From sequence record PZ583742.1: DNA of 64,000 nt. One strand, written 5' to 3'. Below, piece after piece: positions 48,935-53,686 of this stretch. This stretch comes from a phage. Within the stretch, counting starts at the first letter, position 1. Each line of letters starts with the position of its first letter. The position numbers were made by a program, and so were the translations under genes. The notes under the pieces were generated by a model. That model searched no databases. It had not been told where the DNA came from and worked only from the letters and a program-made list of their open reading frames with translations.

Positions 48935-49228
48935 ATGAAAAAGTTATTAATCGCAGCAATTCTTACCGTAGCATCATGTGGTACAGCTCCAGTTACTGCT
49001 GGACTTGATAAAGACCTTTGTGAGTGGTCTATGACTGCGGACCAGACTGATGTTGAACATCAGATTTATGCCGATATCATGAATATTACTAAACGTGACC
49101 GCCCAGATATGGTTAAAGAAGTATCTGACCAATTGACTTCTGGTGACGTTATGCAGTATAACTATGTTCTGTATTGCGATGCTTCATTTGACAACAGCAA
49201 GATTGTTCAATGGGTTACAGGTGAATAA
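48935..49228 (+). CDS. lipoprotein
   Basis: Signal peptide plus lipobox MKKLLIAAILTVASCG; RBS GAGGAGA. Confidence 0.5.
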   Translation: MKKLLIAAILTVASCGTAPVTAGLDKDLCEWSMTADQTDVEHQIYADIMNITKRDRPDMVKEVSDQLTSGDVMQYNYVLYCDASFDNSKIVQWVTGE

Positions 49229-49229
49229 A

Positions 49230-49667
49230 ATGATTAACAGAAATTTAGTTATCAAAAAACTTCGTTGTAAAAATCCAAATGCACAAGCATACAGGGCGTT
49301 TTGGAGCGACGACCATCAATACCTGGGTTATTTTCTTGTTGATAGTGATGATAGAATTACGTTTGCTCATAAACTTCTTAACAAAGAATTAAACCATTGG
49401 AAAGAACTTATTGCGGTCAAGTCCAAATTATTTTCTTGCAATACAATGCACCAATTGGTTTATTTTTTCGCTGATGGTATTCCTGACAAGGTTGAGTTTG
49501 ACGGGTTTGAATTTAAAGACATCAACCCTGATAATGAATTGAATGACAGTATTGTTAATATGGGTATCCCTGGCAAGTACATCAAAAACAGTCTTTTGAA
49601 AATTCTGGAAACCCCTGTTTATTCAGTTGACGACCAGATTTTTAATGCTTTCATGAAGCGAGATTAA
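49230..49667 (+). CDS. hypothetical protein
   Basis: ATG 49230; C-terminal 13 residues identical to next gene (SVDDQIFNAFMKR). Confidence 0.45.
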   Translation: MINRNLVIKKLRCKNPNAQAYRAFWSDDHQYLGYFLVDSDDRITFAHKLLNKELNHWKELIAVKSKLFSCNTMHQLVYFFADGIPDKVEFDGFEFKDINPDNELNDSIVNMGIPGKYIKNSLLKILETPVYSVDDQIFNAFMKRD

Positions 49668-49671
49668 TATG
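49629..49671 (+). repeat. 43-bp direct repeat, copy A (gene 3' end plus next start)
   Basis: gacgaccagatttttaatgcTttcatgaagcgagAttaatatg; 41/43 identical to copy B. Confidence 0.8.
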
Positions 49672-50019
49672 AATGATTACAATTTTCTGAATTTTGAACT
49701 GGCGAGCAATAATGATGGTAATGCTCATTATGAATTCCGCGACCCTCGGTTTAATCAGGCGATTGGTTATATTATCGTTAAAGATGATATTATCATAAAG
49801 GCTCGCTCATTCCTGGTAATGAAAGGACCTTATGAAGATACTCGCGGTTATCCGTTTGATAAAAAGAATGTGCGTGATTGCGCCGCCTGGATAACGGGAA
49901 ATCCCAAAATTGGAGTCATGTTATCTGATGAAGCGAACGACATTTTGAATGGGGTAGGCAAAGCTCAAGAACAGTCTGTCGACGACCAGATTTTTAATGC
50001 CTTCATGAAGCGAGGTTAA
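49669..50019 (+). CDS. hypothetical protein flanked by 43-bp direct repeats
   Basis: ORF whose start and stop each sit inside a copy of a 43-bp direct repeat. Confidence 0.45.
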   Translation: MNDYNFLNFELASNNDGNAHYEFRDPRFNQAIGYIIVKDDIIIKARSFLVMKGPYEDTRGYPFDKKNVRDCAAWITGNPKIGVMLSDEANDILNGVGKAQEQSVDDQIFNAFMKRG

Positions 50020-50242: not shown

Positions 50243-50408
50243 GATTTCTGTCTTCCAGATTTTTGAAGAATATGAAATCGTATCGCAAGACCAAGAAGCA
50301 ATCCATGTTATCGCTGATGATGGTGTTACCTGGATTATTCCGTTGTATCATGAAGACACTTATGAAGTGACTGATGCAAATGGTGATAAAGCTATCTTCG
50401 TTGTATAA
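50217..50408 (+). CDS. hypothetical protein
   Basis: ORF overlapping upstream end. Confidence 0.4.
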   Translation: MSAMCTGSKISVFQIFEEYEIVSQDQEAIHVIADDGVTWIIPLYHEDTYEVTDANGDKAIFVV

Positions 50409-50411
50409 ATA
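50404..50411 (+). promoter_or_regulatory. T4-type late promoter TATAAATA upstream of CTS-bearing small gene
   Basis: Exact TATAAATA 17 nt upstream of ATG 50428. Confidence 0.55.
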
Positions 50412-50427
50412 GCGGAAAGGGGGTGTT

Positions 50428-50595
50428 ATGAAAACATTCAAAGATTTTATCAACGAAAATATGGTTGCCGGTGATGCGGGTGGAAACCCAACTAATATCG
50501 CAACAGGTACCACTTCCGGGGCAGTTGTCAATAAAGGCCCTGAACAAATCCCATCAAAAAAGCGTAAGAACAAAGACGATAAACCTACAGTATAA
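50428..50595 (+). CDS. small internal-protein-like protein with capsid-targeting sequence (55 aa)
   Basis: N-terminus MKTFKDFINE (CTS-like, I-N-E protease site); exact late promoter TATAAATA at 50404-50411; RBS AAAGGGGG; below ORF-track size cutoff. Confidence 0.55.
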   Translation: MKTFKDFINENMVAGDAGGNPTNIATGTTSGAVVNKGPEQIPSKKRKNKDDKPTV

Positions 50596-50627
50596 TGGTC
50601 CTTCGGGGCCATTGAAATGAGGAAACT

Positions 50628-51656
50628 ATGTCATATATTGATAAAGAATTTGCAGTCAGAGCTTTATCGTATCAACCACGTTATAGAGAAGTCACCGGGA
50701 GCACATTTAAAGCAAACTGTCGTTGCAAGGTTTGTGGGGACTCCCAGAAAGATTCACACAAGGCTCGATTCTGGGCGTATACTAATCCGACTGATGGCGC
50801 GGTTTACGTGAAATGTTTTAACTGTGACTACTCCACGCATATAAGCAAATACATAAAAGAGTTTGAGCCGGATTTACACCGGGAATATATGGTTGAGAAG
50901 TATAAGGAGAATGCATTTGGGCGACAACGCACTGAAGTTGCAGAAGCTCCGAAAGAACCAGAAAAAACTCCGGTTATTGAGCAGCTTGCTTTTTGTGAAA
51001 GACTCGATACTTTACCAGAAGCACATCCGATAATTAAGTATGTAAAAAGTCGGTGTATTCCGAGCAATGTTTGGAACCGGTTATGGTTTACAAACAAATG
51101 GCCTGCATTAGTTAACTCCGTTAATCCTGGGACGTATAAGAATGAAACGAATGAACCACGCTTGGTTATTCCTATCTTCAACGGCAAAAAAGAAATCGAA
51201 TCTTTCCAAGGACGAGCTCTTCGCAAAGATGCACCACAAAAATATATCACAATCAAAGCTCACCCAGAAGCTTCCAAAGTCTATGGCGTAGACAAGATTG
51301 ATGAGCGTAAACGCGTATGGGTAATGGAAGGTCCAATTGATAGTTTGTTTATCCCTAACAGCATTGCGATAACCGGTGGAACATTAGCATTGGAAGCTGT
51401 TCCTTACCCAGAAACCAGAGTATGGGTGATGGATTCAGAAGCAAGACATCCTGATACGATTAAACGTATGAAGAAATTAGTCGATGCAGGAGAAGCTGTT
51501 ATGTTCTGGGACAACGCACCGTGGCATACGAAAGATATAAATGAAATGATTAAATCGGAAGGAGCAACGCCTGAGCAAATTGAAGCCTATATGAATGATA
51601 ATATTGCACAAGGTTTAATGGCAAAACTTCGATTATCCAAATATGCAAAAATATGA
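50628..51656 (+). CDS. 61: DNA primase gp61
   Basis: N-terminal zinc ribbon CRCKVCGDS..x..CFNCDYS; TOPRIM-like VWVMEGPIDSLF; size and neighbourhood as T4 gp61. Confidence 0.9.
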   Translation: MSYIDKEFAVRALSYQPRYREVTGSTFKANCRCKVCGDSQKDSHKARFWAYTNPTDGAVYVKCFNCDYSTHISKYIKEFEPDLHREYMVEKYKENAFGRQRTEVAEAPKEPEKTPVIEQLAFCERLDTLPEAHPIIKYVKSRCIPSNVWNRLWFTNKWPALVNSVNPGTYKNETNEPRLVIPIFNGKKEIESFQGRALRKDAPQKYITIKAHPEASKVYGVDKIDERKRVWVMEGPIDSLFIPNSIAITGGTLALEAVPYPETRVWVMDSEARHPDTIKRMKKLVDAGEAVMFWDNAPWHTKDINEMIKSEGATPEQIEAYMNDNIAQGLMAKLRLSKYAKI

Positions 51657-52420
51657 ATTATCTAAAATTATATAATAAATTAATAGACAAAGGCCTCGCA
51701 AGGGGCCTAAACAAAAAGAATATCCCATTTTATACGGAGTCCCATCATATACTACCAAGGTGTTTGGGTGGACCTGACACCGAAGATAATTTGGTATTGT
51801 TATCAGCAAGAGAACATTTTATTGCACATTTGTTACTTTTTAAAATTTATCGACTTTCTAAATTAATGTTTGCTATACACCGGATGTGCGGTGACAAATT
51901 TGATAGCGCAAAATATGAATGGATGCGAAAAGAACATAGTAAAGCCGTTAGTGAACATATGTCAAACTTATGGAGTCAATCCGAGTTTAAAGACAAAATG
52001 TTAATTGCTTTACACAAGCGACATAACGACCACCCTGTGTCTGATAAAACCAAAAGTAAAATAGCTAACTCATTAAAATTGTATTATCAAAATAATCCAG
52101 TTACTGATGAACAACGGCAAAAGAATCGCGATGCACAAATGAGAAGATTTAAAGAAAATCCGCAAACCGAAGAAACGAAAAAGTTGCGGCGAGAAGCATG
52201 CCGAAAGGCAACTGGAACACCGGTTTGTAGATGCGATGAATTTGGTAATATACTTGAAAAGTATAATTCGGGAGCTGAGGCAAAGGAATTATTACAATTG
52301 GCGGGCAATACTCAAAATATATACACAGCTTGTAAAAGAAATAAAAAGACAGGCCGAATGTATAGGTCAAACGGCCATTTTTGGAAGTATCAAGACGAGG
52401 AAGGGATTCCGGTAAAGTAA
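51653..52420 (+). CDS. HNH homing endonuclease (Mob-like)
   Basis: HNH motif ESHHILPRCLGGPDTEDNLVLLSAREHFIAH; start overlaps gene 61 stop (ATGA); basic repeat-containing C-terminal half. Confidence 0.75.
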   Translation: MNYLKLYNKLIDKGLARGLNKKNIPFYTESHHILPRCLGGPDTEDNLVLLSAREHFIAHLLLFKIYRLSKLMFAIHRMCGDKFDSAKYEWMRKEHSKAVSEHMSNLWSQSEFKDKMLIALHKRHNDHPVSDKTKSKIANSLKLYYQNNPVTDEQRQKNRDAQMRRFKENPQTEETKKLRREACRKATGTPVCRCDEFGNILEKYNSGAEAKELLQLAGNTQNIYTACKRNKKTGRMYRSNGHFWKYQDEEGIPVK

Positions 52421-52596
52421 CCGATGATGGAATGGATATGTTCCATTGTGACCTGGGGTAAGTGTACCCCTTGTGTTGCAGCGATAGGCACAACCAGTAA
52501 GTTCCACAGGAAAACATCAAGAGCTAAAAAGCCCATGATGAGCTTCTTGTCTTTCTTACTGGTTAATTTCCAAATCTGATAGAATAATGTTCCCAT
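52390..52596 (-). CDS. small membrane protein, minus strand (paralogue of 52605..52802)
   Basis: Minus-strand ORF with RBS AGGTGG 7 nt before ATG; TM segment similar to neighbour (FLWNLLVVPIAATQGVHLP vs LLWNFIVAPVAMAHGVILP). Confidence 0.5.
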   Translation of the reverse strand: MGTLFYQIWKLTSKKDKKLIMGFLALDVFLWNLLVVPIAATQGVHLPQVTMEHIHSIIGYFTGIPSSS

Positions 52597-52604
52597 AGTT
52601 CCAC

Positions 52605-52802
52605 CTATATAAGGCCGATTAATGCCAGTGAAACATCTACAACTGATTCGAGCGCGACGACTGGTAATATAACACCATGTGCCATTGCAACTGGAGCAAC
52701 AATGAAGTTCCAGAGTAGAACTAAACAGAGTACCGAAAGGACCAGAATCGTTCGCTTACGACTGCCTTTGATGGCTTGAATTAGACTAGATAGTTTTAGC
52801 AT
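52605..52802 (-). CDS. small membrane protein, minus strand
   Basis: Minus-strand ORF with RBS AAGAAAGGGGG before ATG; late-promoter-like CATAAATA upstream on minus strand. Confidence 0.5.
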   Translation of the reverse strand: MLKLSSLIQAIKGSRKRTILVLSVLCLVLLWNFIVAPVAMAHGVILPVVALESVVDVSLALIGLI

Positions 52803-52886
52803 ACATCCCCCTTTCTTGTATTTATGCTTTAAACCAATACGATATAATTAACATACAAACAACATGAATTGATAAGGAAAAATATA

Positions 52887-53405
52887 ATGGCTCATTTTAA
52901 TGAATGTTCTCAACTGATTGCTGGTGTTGATAAAGCTCAGGGCGCTTATGATAATGCAATTTTTGAAGGCACTGACCCACTGCAAGTTATGCTTGATATG
53001 CAGAAATCATTGCAGGTTCGTCTGGCTAAAGAAAAACCAGAATATAACGAACATCCTGATAACCTGGCGACTGCTGGTGAAGTTGTTACCTGGCTCCGCA
53101 ACCAGAAAGATTATATTGATGATGAATTCCGTGAACTGATTACTGCATTAGGTGGCATGTCCAATGGCGAGAAAGCTGCCTCGGCCGTATGGAAACCATG
53201 GAAAGCACAACATGGCGAAATGCAGCAAACCCTGATTAATGATTTATCTCCTGAAGACCAGCTCGAAATTAAATTTGAGATGATTGATATCCTGCACTTT
53301 GTCCTGAACATGTTCCACGGTCTTGGACTGACTGCAGAAGAAATCTTTAAATTGTATTATCTGAAAAATGCCGAAAACTTTGCTCGTCAAGACCGAGGTT
53401 ATTAA
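52887..53405 (+). CDS. 56: dCTPase/dUTPase gp56
   Basis: MAHFNEC..L..GVDKAQ; DPLQVMLDMQ; IDDEFRELI; SPEDQLEIKFE..D..HFVLNMF.GLG..AEEIFKLYYLKN.ENFARQDRGY is near-identical to T4 gp56. Confidence 0.93.
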   Translation: MAHFNECSQLIAGVDKAQGAYDNAIFEGTDPLQVMLDMQKSLQVRLAKEKPEYNEHPDNLATAGEVVTWLRNQKDYIDDEFRELITALGGMSNGEKAASAVWKPWKAQHGEMQQTLINDLSPEDQLEIKFEMIDILHFVLNMFHGLGLTAEEIFKLYYLKNAENFARQDRGY

Positions 53406-53686
53406 TGGCTCGATTAAATAAACGTCAGCTTAAGAAAGCTCGCAAGAAATATATTAACGATATAATTGAAAATGTTAATACCGAAATCTTCGTAGAACTC
53501 TTATCTAATCAACTAAAACATTTATCTAAACATGAAATTGATACGAATACTGAAAATGCTAAAAATGTAATTGAAACTCATAATGCTTTTGCTAATGCAA
53601 CAGCAGAATGGATGGCGAATCCTACTGCTGAAAATCTAGCTAAAATGACTGAAGCCAATAAAGCAGTTCAAGCCATCAAATTGTAA
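53405..53686 (+). CDS. hypothetical protein
   Basis: ORF abutting gene 56 stop. Confidence 0.4.
   Translation: MARLNKRQLKKARKKYINDIIENVNTEIFVELLSNQLKHLSKHEIDTNTENAKNVIETHNAFANATAEWMANPTAENLAKMTEANKAVQAIKL

What the first reader, a model, noticed from the sequence alone, without database searches (positions are those of the whole stretch)
51653..52420. Free-standing HNH homing endonuclease inserted downstream of primase
The ORF starts on the primase stop (ATGA) and carries a textbook HNH motif (ESHHILPRCLGGPDTEDNLVLLSAREHFIAH) followed by basic, repeat-like DNA-binding modules, the organisation of T4 Mob-type endonucleases. Its 3' end overlaps by about 30 bp the end of a convergent minus-strand gene, suggesting a recent insertion.
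Basis: partly seen in the sequence, partly recalled or inferred. Interest (0 to 1): 0.45.

Follow-up and report, generated by a model that had tools for sequence, protein, structure and literature searches.

The report
Mob-type HNH homing endonuclease after primase
This is an ordinary selfish "homing endonuclease" gene of the phage T4 Mob type sitting right behind the DNA primase gene of a T4-like coliphage; it travels with about 230 bases of foreign primase sequence, which hints at where the enzyme cuts.

Summary
ORF 51653-52420 (+, 255 aa) starts in an ATGA overlap with the gene 61 primase stop. It carries the quoted HNH motif and overlaps a convergent small gene by 31 bp.

The window is a Gaprivervirus (T4-like). 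About 30 related database records lack the ORF, and there the primase stop abuts the convergent gene. Three sequenced phages and one metagenomic contig carry it at 98-99% identity.

The catalytic residues are invariant in 70 homologues. The N-terminal 130-165 aa match T4 MobB (48%) and MobD (41%).

Orthologues (47-66% aa) sit directly behind primase in four other T4-like lineages. In Gaprivervirus and Dhakavirus, gene presence is strictly linked to a foreign haplotype of the last ~230 nt of primase. That haplotype begins at the Toprim-like VMDNEP motif, where all five carrier lineages have Ser or Ala instead of Asn. I infer intronless homing with a target in the primase 3' part, as for MobE/nrdB. 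This step is not shown.

The 31-bp overlap is not an insertion scar. A small mutated patch removed two abutting stop codons; sister alleles (RZ, DK-13) keep them.

Verdict: a new member of a known kind, already auto-annotated as "homing endonuclease" in relatives. Modest interest.

The parts
51653..52420 (+). Free-standing Mob-type HNH homing endonuclease gene (255 aa)
   Evidence: ORF; PHROG 655 E 6e-45; T4 MobB 48% over aa 1-129, E 3e-41, and MobD 41% over aa 1-165; AF2 model pLDDT 89.6; absent from most related genomes.
51653..51656 (+). ATGA overlap of the primase stop and the endonuclease start. No Shine-Dalgarno sequence and no promoter directly upstream, so the gene looks like a promoterless, translationally coupled cassette.
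   Evidence: Sequence; no late promoter TATAAATA nearer than 50404; the same ATGA overlap in Bp7, MHG19 and L050; analogy with nrdA/mobE in PMC2988022.
51737..51829 (+). HNH catalytic core, residues E29-H59 (E29, H31, H32, P35, G39, G40, N46, E54, H55, H59)
   Evidence: These residues are invariant in a 70-sequence alignment. The core aligns to HNH domains of solved structures (group II intron maturase, Cas8-HNH, McrA). Strands 29-32 and 47-50 plus helix 52-66 form the beta-beta-alpha unit.
52031..52222 (+). Three basic helical repeats (aa 127-190), diverged NUMOD3-like modules
   Evidence: HPVSDKTKSKIANSLKLYYQNN / PVTDEQRQKNRDAQMRRFKENP / QTEETKKLRREACRKATGTPVC; helices 131-147, 152-168, 173-187. 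They align with the region where 6 of 10 family members have significant Pfam NUMOD3. Pfam is not significant here (E 0.68).
52214..52390 (+). C-terminal putative DNA-binding domain (aa 188-246, beta-beta-alpha-alpha-beta-beta, ends ...WKY), specific to the primase-associated lineage
   Evidence: Conserved in the five orthologous lineages (QNIYTACKR...Y.S.G..WKY); secondary structure; absent from MobB/MobD. No Pfam or fold match.
52391..52420 (+). Nine-residue read-through tail (QDEEGIPVK) plus stop, produced by loss of the ancestral stop; this creates the 31-bp overlap
   Evidence: Orthologues end WKY+1 residue. RZ and DK-13 end WKYAKV* at a TAG that abuts the convergent gene's stop. pLDDT is about 51 for the last residues.
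51423..51656 (+). Endonuclease-linked foreign haplotype of the primase 3' end (primase nt 796-1029), co-inherited with the endonuclease gene
   Evidence: All 40 fixed differences between 5 carrier and 5 empty Gaprivervirus primases lie at nt >=801. The tail is 81% identical to empty alleles, against 97% for the 5' part. No closer donor exists in the phage database. GC is 37.6% against 41.6%.
51423..51449 (+). Primase motif W-V-M-D-S-E-A-R-H. This is the variant of the predicted target; empty alleles read TGGGTAATGGACAAYGARCC = WVMDNEP. Its resistance to cutting is inferred, not shown.
   Evidence: The first fixed differences (nt 801, 807-810, 814) fall here. The foreign tract in Dhakavirus starts at the same place. 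All 5 carrier lineages have S or A instead of N, against 2 of 8 empty lineages.
50628..51656 (+). Gene 61 DNA primase (342 aa), the presumed target gene
   Evidence: PHROG 47 E 1.6e-93; annotated as gp61 in relatives.
52390..52596 (-). Convergent small hydrophobic protein gene (68 aa, PHROG 2024). Its 3' end overlaps the endonuclease gene; here it is extended by two codons (…GIPSSS*) because its own stop was lost in the same patch.
   Evidence: In empty alleles it ends …GIPS* abutting the primase stop.

Best explanation
The ORF is an intact, free-standing HNH homing endonuclease gene of the T4 Mob type. It belongs to a lineage that lives specifically at the 3' end of the primase gene (gene 61) of T4-like phages.

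Shown here:
- It is an optional insertion between gene 61 and a convergent small gene.
- It has a conserved HNH catalytic core homologous to T4 MobB and MobD.
- It carries a lineage-specific C-terminal domain.
- Orthologues occupy the same site in five T4-like lineages.
- In two genera its presence is strictly linked to a foreign version of the last ~230 nt of primase.

Inferred:
- It is a promoterless cassette, co-transcribed with gene 61 and translated at a low level by termination-reinitiation at the ATGA overlap.
- In a mixed infection the enzyme nicks or cleaves the endonuclease-free primase allele of the co-infecting phage.
- The break is repaired from the carrier genome. This copies the endonuclease gene together with the stretch between the cut and the insertion (intronless homing with co-conversion, as for MobE/nrdB, SegF/gene 56 and SegG/gene 32).

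The most likely target is the conserved DNA encoding the Toprim-like acidic motif VMDNEP (TGGGTAATGGACAAYGARCC, primase nt ~796-815, about 215-235 bp upstream of the insertion). Carrier genomes have changed this to DSEA, DSES or DAEP and would therefore be resistant. I give this target assignment about 45%. The main alternative is a target at the insertion junction itself.
For: Identity of the gene:
- ORF, ATGA overlap and motif.
- PHROG 655 E 6e-45; MobB 48%, E 3e-41, and MobD 41%, E 2e-33.
- E29, H31, H32, N46, H55 and H59 invariant in 70 homologues.
- HNH core aligns to solved HNH nucleases.
- High-confidence model with a beta-beta-alpha unit, three helical repeats and a C-terminal domain.

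Optional insertion:
- Empty alleles in UPEC01, VR20, VR7, P479, SP18 and others.
- Only 4 of 50,697 phage records carry it at more than 95% identity, while about 30 Gaprivervirus records have the empty-type primase tail.

Site specificity of the lineage:
- Orthologues lie directly after primase in L009 (66%), Bp7 (55%), MHG19 (53%) and L050 (47%).

Co-conversion signature:
- 40 fixed differences, all at primase nt >=801.
- DK-13 and the other carriers have different backbones upstream of nt 760 but the same block from nt 801.
- Bp7 against five empty Dhakavirus genomes shows the same boundary at about nt 777-800.
- No linked haplotype lies to the right of the gene.
- The block is 97.9-99.8% identical among carriers, against 87-98% for the flanks.
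- GC is lower in the block.

Motif association:
- 5 of 5 carrier lineages are non-Asn against 2 of 8 empty lineages. Fisher p = 0.02, not corrected for phylogeny.

Purifying selection:
- 14 synonymous against 5 non-synonymous variable codons among five alleles.

Precedents from the literature:
- Distant cleavage sites, promoterless cassettes and ATGA coupling (PMC2988022).
- MobE nicks T2 nrdB at nt 122-126 and is kept off its own genome by polymorphisms (PMC2790892).
Against: - No biochemical or genetic test of activity exists for this protein or any orthologue that I could find.
- Pfam HNH is just below its gathering score, and NUMOD3 is not significant for this protein.
- The shared left boundary among Gaprivervirus carriers could reflect one ancestral introgression followed by free recombination in the 97%-identical upstream DNA, rather than repeated cutting at that place.
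- The highly conserved block just upstream could also fix cross-genus crossovers there.
- Two empty lineages (L040, L042) also have Ser in the motif.
- The left half of the predicted target (GTATGGGTAATGGA) also occurs in the carrier genome at 51315. It cannot by itself be the whole recognition site.
Confidence: 0.75

Rival explanations
1. This is the same endonuclease, but its target is the insertion site itself: the junction between the primase stop and the convergent gene stop in empty alleles. That is how intron-encoded enzymes cut, within about 25 bp of the insertion. Under this reading the 230-nt foreign primase tail is only a relic of the original cross-lineage introgression.
For: - In RZ and DK-13 the gene ends with the exact last 19 nt of the empty-allele primase (GAAGTACGCAAAAGTTTAG). 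The crossover falls inside a 6-10-nt microhomology (TTTNGAAGTA). This is what a break end lying very near the primase stop would leave.
- The junction patch is unusually variable between alleles.
- Inserting the gene would by itself destroy such a site.
Against: - The linked haplotype is strongly one-sided: about 230 nt to the left and none to the right.
- The same left boundary occurs in two genera whose foreign tails are unrelated (65% identical).
- An Asn-to-Ser/Ala change at that boundary occurs in all five carrier lineages. A junction target does not explain this.
- The junction DNA is less conserved between genera than the VMDNEP region.
- Characterised free-standing T4 endonucleases cut at a distance from their genes (PMC2988022).
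Confidence: 0.2
2. The gene is a defunct or decaying relic. It is no longer an active nuclease and is carried along passively or through hitch-hiking. In T4, by comparison, I-TevIII is defunct and activity has not been determined for several mob genes.
For: - There is no functional evidence.
- The C-terminus is unstable: two allele types, a lost stop and a 9-residue disordered tail.
- Only a few carriers exist among about 30 Gaprivervirus records.
- The literature notes that activity has not been determined for several T4 mob genes (PMC2988022 Table 1).
Against: - The ORF is full length in five independent genomes.
- All catalytic residues are intact.
- Variable codons are 14 synonymous against 5 non-synonymous.
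- The C-terminal domain is conserved across five lineages at 44-70% identity.
- The block is less diverged than its flanks, which suggests recent spread.
Confidence: 0.12
3. The nuclease has been co-opted for a phage benefit other than its own spread. Examples would be exclusion of competing phage genomes or recombination-driven gene amplification, as recently reported for SegB.
For: - Homing endonucleases cause marker exclusion (PMC2988022).
- SegB promotes amplification of anti-defence loci (PMC13096335, abstract).
- The 61-56 interval is a hot spot with several different endonuclease genes in relatives.
Against: - Nothing in the locus points to a cargo or defence-related neighbour.
- The distribution is sporadic, as for a selfish element.
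- This reading is compatible with the main explanation rather than an alternative to it.
Confidence: 0.05

Closest known systems
T4 MobB and MobD (free-standing HNH 'mob' endonucleases of phage T4)
   Same: Same N-terminal signature (MNYxxIY…), the same HNH core and the same helical linker: 48% identity over aa 1-129 with MobB and 41% over aa 1-165 with MobD. Similar size (255 against 264 and 259 aa). Free-standing, and in the same orientation as the neighbouring early genes.
   Different: Different insertion sites: MobB lies between alpha-gt and alpha-gt.2, and MobD between nrdC.11 and mobD.1 (PMC2988022). There is no similarity in the C-terminal 90-125 residues, so the target should differ. 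Targets and activity of MobB and MobD are themselves unknown (PMC2988022 Table 1).
T4 MobE / nrdB system (Wilson & Edgell 2009, PMC2790892)
   Same: Best functional analogue. It is a promoterless HNH cassette whose start overlaps the stop of the upstream gene. Its target lies in a conserved gene more than 100 bp from the insertion. Polymorphisms in the carrier genome prevent self-nicking, and flanking markers are co-converted. It has a hairpin near the 5' end of the ORF; here there is a GNRA-loop hairpin at 51691-51708.
   Different: The target gene is nrdB, not primase. The hairpin here has no U-tract, so it is not an obvious terminator. The predicted target lies upstream of the endonuclease gene, in the preceding gene, rather than downstream.
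T4 SegF / gene 56 (GIY-YIG; intronless homing)
   Same: Same genomic neighbourhood: segF follows gene 56 in T4, VR7 and P479. Same logic of a cut in the upstream essential gene at a distance from the insertion, with co-conversion (PMC2988022).
   Different: A different catalytic family (GIY-YIG) and a different target gene. It is not present in this window.
I-HmuI (intron-encoded HNH nicking endonuclease of Bacillus phage SPO1, PDB 1U3E)
   Different: I-HmuI is intron-encoded and nicks 3 nt from the insertion site (my recollection of the literature, not checked here). There is no significant sequence match to the PDB chain.

Membership tests
HNH (beta-beta-alpha-metal) nuclease superfamily | Catalytic His (general base) in a beta-hairpin, a structural Asn, and a downstream His/Asn metal ligand on the following helix | tested here: met
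   H31/H32, N46, H55 and H59 are invariant in 70 homologues. The core aligns residue by residue to HNH domains of 6ME0, 8YDB and 6GHC. The model shows strands 29-32 and 47-50 followed by helix 52-66.
HNH (beta-beta-alpha-metal) nuclease superfamily | Significant match to the curated Pfam HNH model (PF01844) | tested here: inconclusive
   19.9 bits against a gathering score of 21.4, E 8e-4. All 10 family members scanned hit PF01844, best E 3e-6.
T4 Mob-type free-standing HNH homing endonucleases | Sequence homology to T4 Mob proteins over the catalytic domain | tested here: met
   MobB 48%, E 3e-41; MobD 41%, E 2e-33; PHROG 655 E 6e-45.
T4 Mob-type free-standing HNH homing endonucleases | Free-standing: between genes, not inside an intron or intein | tested here: met
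   The ORF starts at the stop of a full-length primase. No group I intron or other Rfam family is found in 50400-53600.
T4 Mob-type free-standing HNH homing endonucleases | Optional element: closely related genomes have an uninterrupted empty site | tested here: met
   Empty alleles in UPEC01, VR20, VR7, P479, SP18, VR25 and VR26. Four carrier records against about 30 empty ones.
T4 Mob-type free-standing HNH homing endonucleases | Co-conversion of flanking markers with the endonuclease gene | tested here: met
   The ~230-nt primase-tail haplotype is strictly linked to the gene in Gaprivervirus (40 fixed differences) and in Dhakavirus. This is a comparative signature, not a cross.
T4 Mob-type free-standing HNH homing endonucleases | Site-specific nicking or cleavage of the endonuclease-free allele, and super-Mendelian inheritance in mixed infection | not testable with these tools
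   Needs enzyme assays and phage crosses. No publication on a gene-61-associated endonuclease was found.
NUMOD3 / NUMOD1 nuclease-associated DNA-binding modules | Significant match to Pfam NUMOD3 (PF07460) or NUMOD1 (PF07453) | tested here: not met
   NUMOD3 E 0.68, 10.4 bits against a cut-off of 20.4, for aa 120-191. Nothing was found for the C-terminal 68 aa. Six of 10 homologues have significant NUMOD3 at the aligned position, so the repeats are best called diverged NUMOD3-like.
I-HmuI-like HNH homing endonucleases (structure 1U3E) | Structural superposition on I-HmuI | tested here: inconclusive

The most novel reading that the evidence does not exclude
A previously undescribed lineage of Mob-like HNH endonucleases is dedicated to the primase gene of T4-like phages. 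It recognises the DNA encoding the metal-binding D-N-E Toprim-like motif. Each time it moves it carries a resistant, foreign C-terminal primase module (about 78 codons) with it. It would thereby drive modular exchange of part of an essential replication enzyme between phage genera (Gaprivervirus, Dhakavirus and at least three further lineages).
Probability: 0.4. Interest if true: 0.45.

Novelty: new member of a known kind. Interest (0 to 1): 0.3.

Why it matters
By itself this is one more selfish endonuclease gene in a T4-like phage, already labelled 'homing endonuclease' by automatic annotation in near-identical genomes.

The comparative picture adds something testable:
- A Mob lineage with a fixed address behind gene 61 in five lineages.
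- A sharply bounded, endonuclease-linked replacement of the primase C-terminal ~78 codons.
- A concrete target prediction (TGGGTAATGGACAAYGARCC, the VMDNEP motif).

The targets of most T4 mob genes are still unknown (PMC2988022 Table 1). A lineage with natural carrier and empty pairs at 95-97% backbone identity would be a convenient system. It could be used to map an HNH homing site and to measure how such elements reshuffle an essential replication gene.

Tried and rejected
- Donor search. The endonuclease-linked primase tail (257 nt) was searched against 50,697 phage records. Nothing is closer than the empty Gaprivervirus alleles themselves (83%), so the donor lineage is unsampled.
- Tails of different carrier lineages do not cluster together (65-72% identity), so there is no evidence for one shared mobile tail.
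- PDB sequence and profile searches found only the generic HNH core.
- Pfam on isolated segments gave no NUMOD1 and a non-significant NUMOD3. NCBIfam gave nothing relevant.
- Hypothesis that damage to the convergent small gene (deletions in RZ, DK-13, P8) is a side-effect of the insertion: rejected. Empty-site phages show the same or other lesions: SP18 has the identical 97-bp deletion, VR20 a 2-bp deletion and VR7 a 1-bp insertion.
- Apparent exception L033 (HNH ORF present with a DNEP primase). It is a different 218-aa HNH endonuclease gene, inserted between the convergent gene and gene 56 rather than after primase.
- Expression signals. No promoter or terminator signal exceeds shuffled expectation. 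No late promoter lies upstream of the ORF. The 5' hairpin is not more stable than in shuffles overall, z -0.98.
- Intron-encoded reading: rejected.
- Scans of IMG/VR and the metagenome collection for more orthologues returned few: none of this lineage in IMG/VR and one new lineage, L050, in metagenomes. The motif association therefore rests on five carrier lineages only.
- Literature searches found no description of a gene-61-associated endonuclease.
Full report
**1. The observation**

The ORF finder lists 51653..52420 (+, ATG start, 255 aa). The upstream ORF 50628..51656 (342 aa) is the T4-type primase gp61 (PHROG 47, E 1.6e-93). The two share ATGA at 51653-51656. The translation contains the quoted string FYTESHHILPRCLGGPDTEDNLVLLSAREHFIAH.

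A convergent minus-strand ORF, 52390..52596 (68 aa, PHROG 2024, E 7e-28), overlaps the 3' end by 31 bp. A paralogue follows at 52605..52802, and then gene 56 (dCTPase) at 52869..53405.

**2. What genome this is, and whether the ORF is an insertion**

The region is 92-96% identical to phages of the genus Gaprivervirus (VR20, VR7, SP18, RZ, DK-13, UPEC01 and others).

The ORF itself is present at more than 95% identity in only four records, representing three phages: Yersinia phage P8 (99.0%), RZ (97.9%) and DK-13 (97.8%). One metagenomic contig, L014, also carries it. About 30 Gaprivervirus records carry the empty type of primase tail.

In the empty alleles (UPEC01, VR20, VR7, P479, SP18) the primase stop TAG directly abuts the stop of the convergent small gene. 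So the ORF is an optional insertion of about 740 bp. No group I intron or any other RNA family is detected in 50400-53600, and the primase is full length. The gene is therefore free-standing.

**3. The protein**

Sequence evidence:
- PHROG 655 'homing endonuclease', E 6e-45.
- Pfam HNH lies just below its cut-off: 19.9 against 21.4 bits.
- T4 MobB is 48% identical over aa 1-129 (E 3e-41) and T4 MobD 41% over aa 1-165 (E 2e-33). Neither matches the C-terminal part.
- In an alignment of 70 homologues, E29, H31, H32, P35, G39, G40, N46, E54, H55, H59 and L62 are invariant.
- The core aligns to HNH domains of solved nucleases.

Structure prediction. An AlphaFold model built on the alignment is confident (mean pLDDT 89.6). 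It shows the following elements:
- a beta-beta-alpha unit (strands 29-32 and 47-50, helix 52-66);
- a helical linker;
- three consecutive ~16-residue basic helices (131-147, 152-168, 173-187), each opening with S/T-D/E-x;
- a C-terminal beta-beta-alpha-alpha-beta-beta domain (191-246);
- a low-confidence tail (247-255).

The three helices occupy the position where 6 of 10 family members have significant Pfam NUMOD3. In this protein NUMOD3 is not significant (E 0.68). I call them diverged NUMOD3-like modules.

**4. A lineage with a fixed address**

The closest non-Gaprivervirus homologues all lie immediately downstream of the primase gene, and upstream of gene 56, in other T4-like phages:

| Orthologue | aa identity | Source |
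|---|---|---|
| P0002 | 66% | metagenomic phage contigs (L009) |
| P0003 | 55% | Dhakavirus Bp7 |
| P0004 | 53% | Yersinia phage MHG19 |
| 250-aa protein | 47% | contig L050 |

Three of these four also use an ATGA overlap. They share the C-terminal domain (QNIYTACKR…Y.S.G..WKY), which MobB and MobD lack. Within Dhakavirus the gene is again sporadic: QL01 and four other genomes are empty. A conserved DNA-binding domain combined with a conserved address is what a site-specific homing endonuclease predicts.

**5. The endonuclease-linked primase tail**

I compared five carrier and five empty Gaprivervirus primase genes, all 1029 nt and without indels.
- Every one of the 40 fixed differences lies at nt >=801.
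- Upstream polymorphisms are mosaic and unrelated to carrier status. For example, DK-13 shares the UPEC01/P479 variants at nt 747 and 759-760, while the window, P8, RZ and L014 share the VR20 variants. Yet all five have the same haplotype from nt 801 on.
- The tail is 81% identical to empty alleles, against 97% for the 5' part.
- Its GC content is lower: 37.6%, with the endonuclease gene at 35.8%, against 41.6% for the 5' part of primase.
- It has no closer relative among 50,697 phage records.

To the right of the gene there is no linked haplotype at all. Homology to empty alleles resumes at the junction.

Among the carriers, the block from primase nt 796 to the end of the endonuclease gene is 97.9-99.8% identical. 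The flanks are 87-98% identical. So the block has a more recent common ancestor than the backbones.

Dhakavirus repeats the pattern independently. Bp7 differs from empty relatives by 0-10 mismatches per 90 nt up to nt ~780 and by 31-35 per 90 nt afterwards. Its tail is unrelated to the Gaprivervirus one (65% identical).

**6. Where the enzyme probably cuts (inference)**

The first fixed differences form a cluster at nt 801-814. Empty alleles of Gaprivervirus and Dhakavirus read TGGGTAATGGACAAYGARCC (W-V-M-D-N-E-P). I take this, from general knowledge of Toprim primases, to be the second acidic metal-binding motif, with Asn in the tolerant middle position.

The five carrier lineages read:
- DSEA (Gaprivervirus)
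- DSES (Bp7)
- DSES (L009)
- DAEP (MHG19)
- DAEP (L050)

Of eight empty lineages, including T4, six have Asn at this position in the motif (DNEP or DNEA) and two have DSEQ. At lineage level Fisher p = 0.02, without phylogenetic correction.

Free-standing T4 endonucleases typically cut a conserved neighbouring gene hundreds of base pairs from their own gene, and everything in between is co-converted (PMC2988022). MobE nicks T2 nrdB at nt 122-126 and is thought to be kept off its own genome by local polymorphisms (PMC2790892).

The one-sided 230-nt tract, its coincident start in two genera and the Asn replacement all fit a target at this motif. I rate this at about 45%.

Caveats:
- The common boundary within Gaprivervirus can be explained by one ancestral introgression followed by recombination in the nearly identical upstream DNA.
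- The very conserved block just upstream may fix cross-genus crossovers there.
- The left half of the proposed site recurs in the carrier genome at 51315.

The main alternative is a target at the insertion junction. The RZ/DK-13 allele hints at this. There the endonuclease gene ends with the exact last 19 nt of the empty-allele primase, joined within a TTTNGAAGTA microhomology.

**7. The 31-bp overlap**

Orthologues end one residue after WKY. RZ and DK-13 end WKYAKV*, and their TAG abuts the convergent gene's TAA exactly as the primase stop does in empty alleles.

In the window, P8 and L014, a 15-nt patch (TAT---CAAGAYGAKGAAGGG instead of TACGCAAAAGTTTAGGAAGGG) removed both stops. The endonuclease ORF then runs on for six more codons after the former stop. 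The convergent ORF gains two codons (…GIPSSS*). The added tail is predicted to be disordered.

The overlap is thus a secondary mutation at the junction. It is not a mark of recent insertion.

**8. Expression (inference)**

There is no Shine-Dalgarno sequence before the ATG. The nearest late promoter consensus on this strand is at 50404, upstream of primase. Promoter-like matches do not exceed shuffled expectation. The gene therefore looks like a promoterless cassette read from the gene 61 transcript and translated by termination-reinitiation, as proposed for nrdA/mobE (PMC2988022).

A GNRA-loop hairpin lies 38 nt into the ORF (51691-51708). This recalls the internal terminator of mobE, but it lacks a U-tract.

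**9. Is it still functional?**

The ORF is intact in five genomes. The catalytic residues are intact. Variable codons among the five alleles are 14 synonymous against 5 non-synonymous. The C-terminal domain is conserved across lineages. This favours an active or recently active enzyme, but nothing has been tested.

**10. Verdict**

This is a free-standing, Mob-type HNH homing endonuclease gene inserted behind gene 61. Relatives' GenBank and RefSeq records already label it 'homing endonuclease'.

I found no description of this primase-associated lineage or of its target. It is a new member of a known kind, of modest interest. Its value lies in the clear natural carrier/empty pairs and in a concrete, testable target prediction.

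Noticed in passing
window 52390-52596 and 52605-52802 (minus strand): Two tandem paralogous genes for small hydrophobic proteins (68 and 65 aa, both PHROG 2024, function unknown) lie between the endonuclease gene and gene 56. The first copy is decaying in many relatives, whether or not they carry the endonuclease gene. An identical 97-bp deletion between internal repeats occurs in P8, L014 and SP18. RZ and DK-13 have a 26-bp deletion, VR20 a 2-bp deletion and VR7 a 1-bp insertion.
   Followed up: partly
L052 (T4 NC_000866.4) 2126-2436, between gene 61 and dam: The 310-nt gap in T4 encodes, on the strand opposite gene 61, a 66-aa protein (MVQKLMALVNAIKGNKKRIAFTISTMVGILLWNFILSPVAIAHGVNIPVVTLDTFVDLAFALVGLI). 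It clearly resembles the window's 52605-52802 product. No CDS is listed there in the RefSeq feature table returned.
   Followed up: no
L014 5148-7464 (metagenomic Gaprivervirus contig SRR25010926_282): Between the small convergent gene and gene 56, this relative carries an extra ~2.4-kb insert. It holds a 496-aa protein with a LEM-3-type GIY-YIG nuclease domain plus two ORFs of 153 and 122 aa. This is another mobile-looking element in the same interval.
   Followed up: no
L033 2787-3443 (Dhakavirus, IMG/VR 2706795356); L047 2545-3198: A second, different HNH endonuclease gene (218 aa, MNYEKIYNELISNGKLRG…) sits between the convergent small gene and gene 56 in a Dhakavirus whose primase keeps the DNEP motif. 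In L047 the primase ORF stops right after …WVMDNEPRHPL and runs into this other endonuclease gene. That contig also has internal duplications and frameshifts, so it may be a poor assembly.
   Followed up: partly
L006 4152-4823, L007 4150-4806, L004 4217-5050, L052 107-781: The segF gene (GIY-YIG) follows gene 56 in VR7, P479 and T4. DK-13 has a 277-aa ORF at the same place. The window instead has a 93-aa ORF (53405-53686), as does UPEC01. The 61-56-soc stretch is a hot spot for different endonuclease genes.
   Followed up: no
window 51691-51708: A 7-bp hairpin with a GCAA tetraloop (AGGCCUC-GCAA-GGGGCCU) lies 38 nt into the endonuclease ORF. On the minus strand the scan flags it as terminator-like; on the plus strand it has no U-tract. 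Its position recalls the internal terminator of T4 mobE (PMC2790892).
   Followed up: partly
window 51315-51328 and 51420-51433: A 14-nt direct repeat, GTATGGGTAATGGA / GTATGGGTGATGGA, encodes the two primase motifs VWVMEG and VWVMDS. The upstream copy is identical to the empty-allele version of the left half of the predicted target.
   Followed up: no
window 49143-49667 and 49669-50019: Two adjacent plus-strand ORFs (174 and 116 aa, in the gene 61.2-like region) end with the same peptide, SVDDQIFNAFMKR(D/G). This suggests a tandem duplication or a shared C-terminal module.
   Followed up: no
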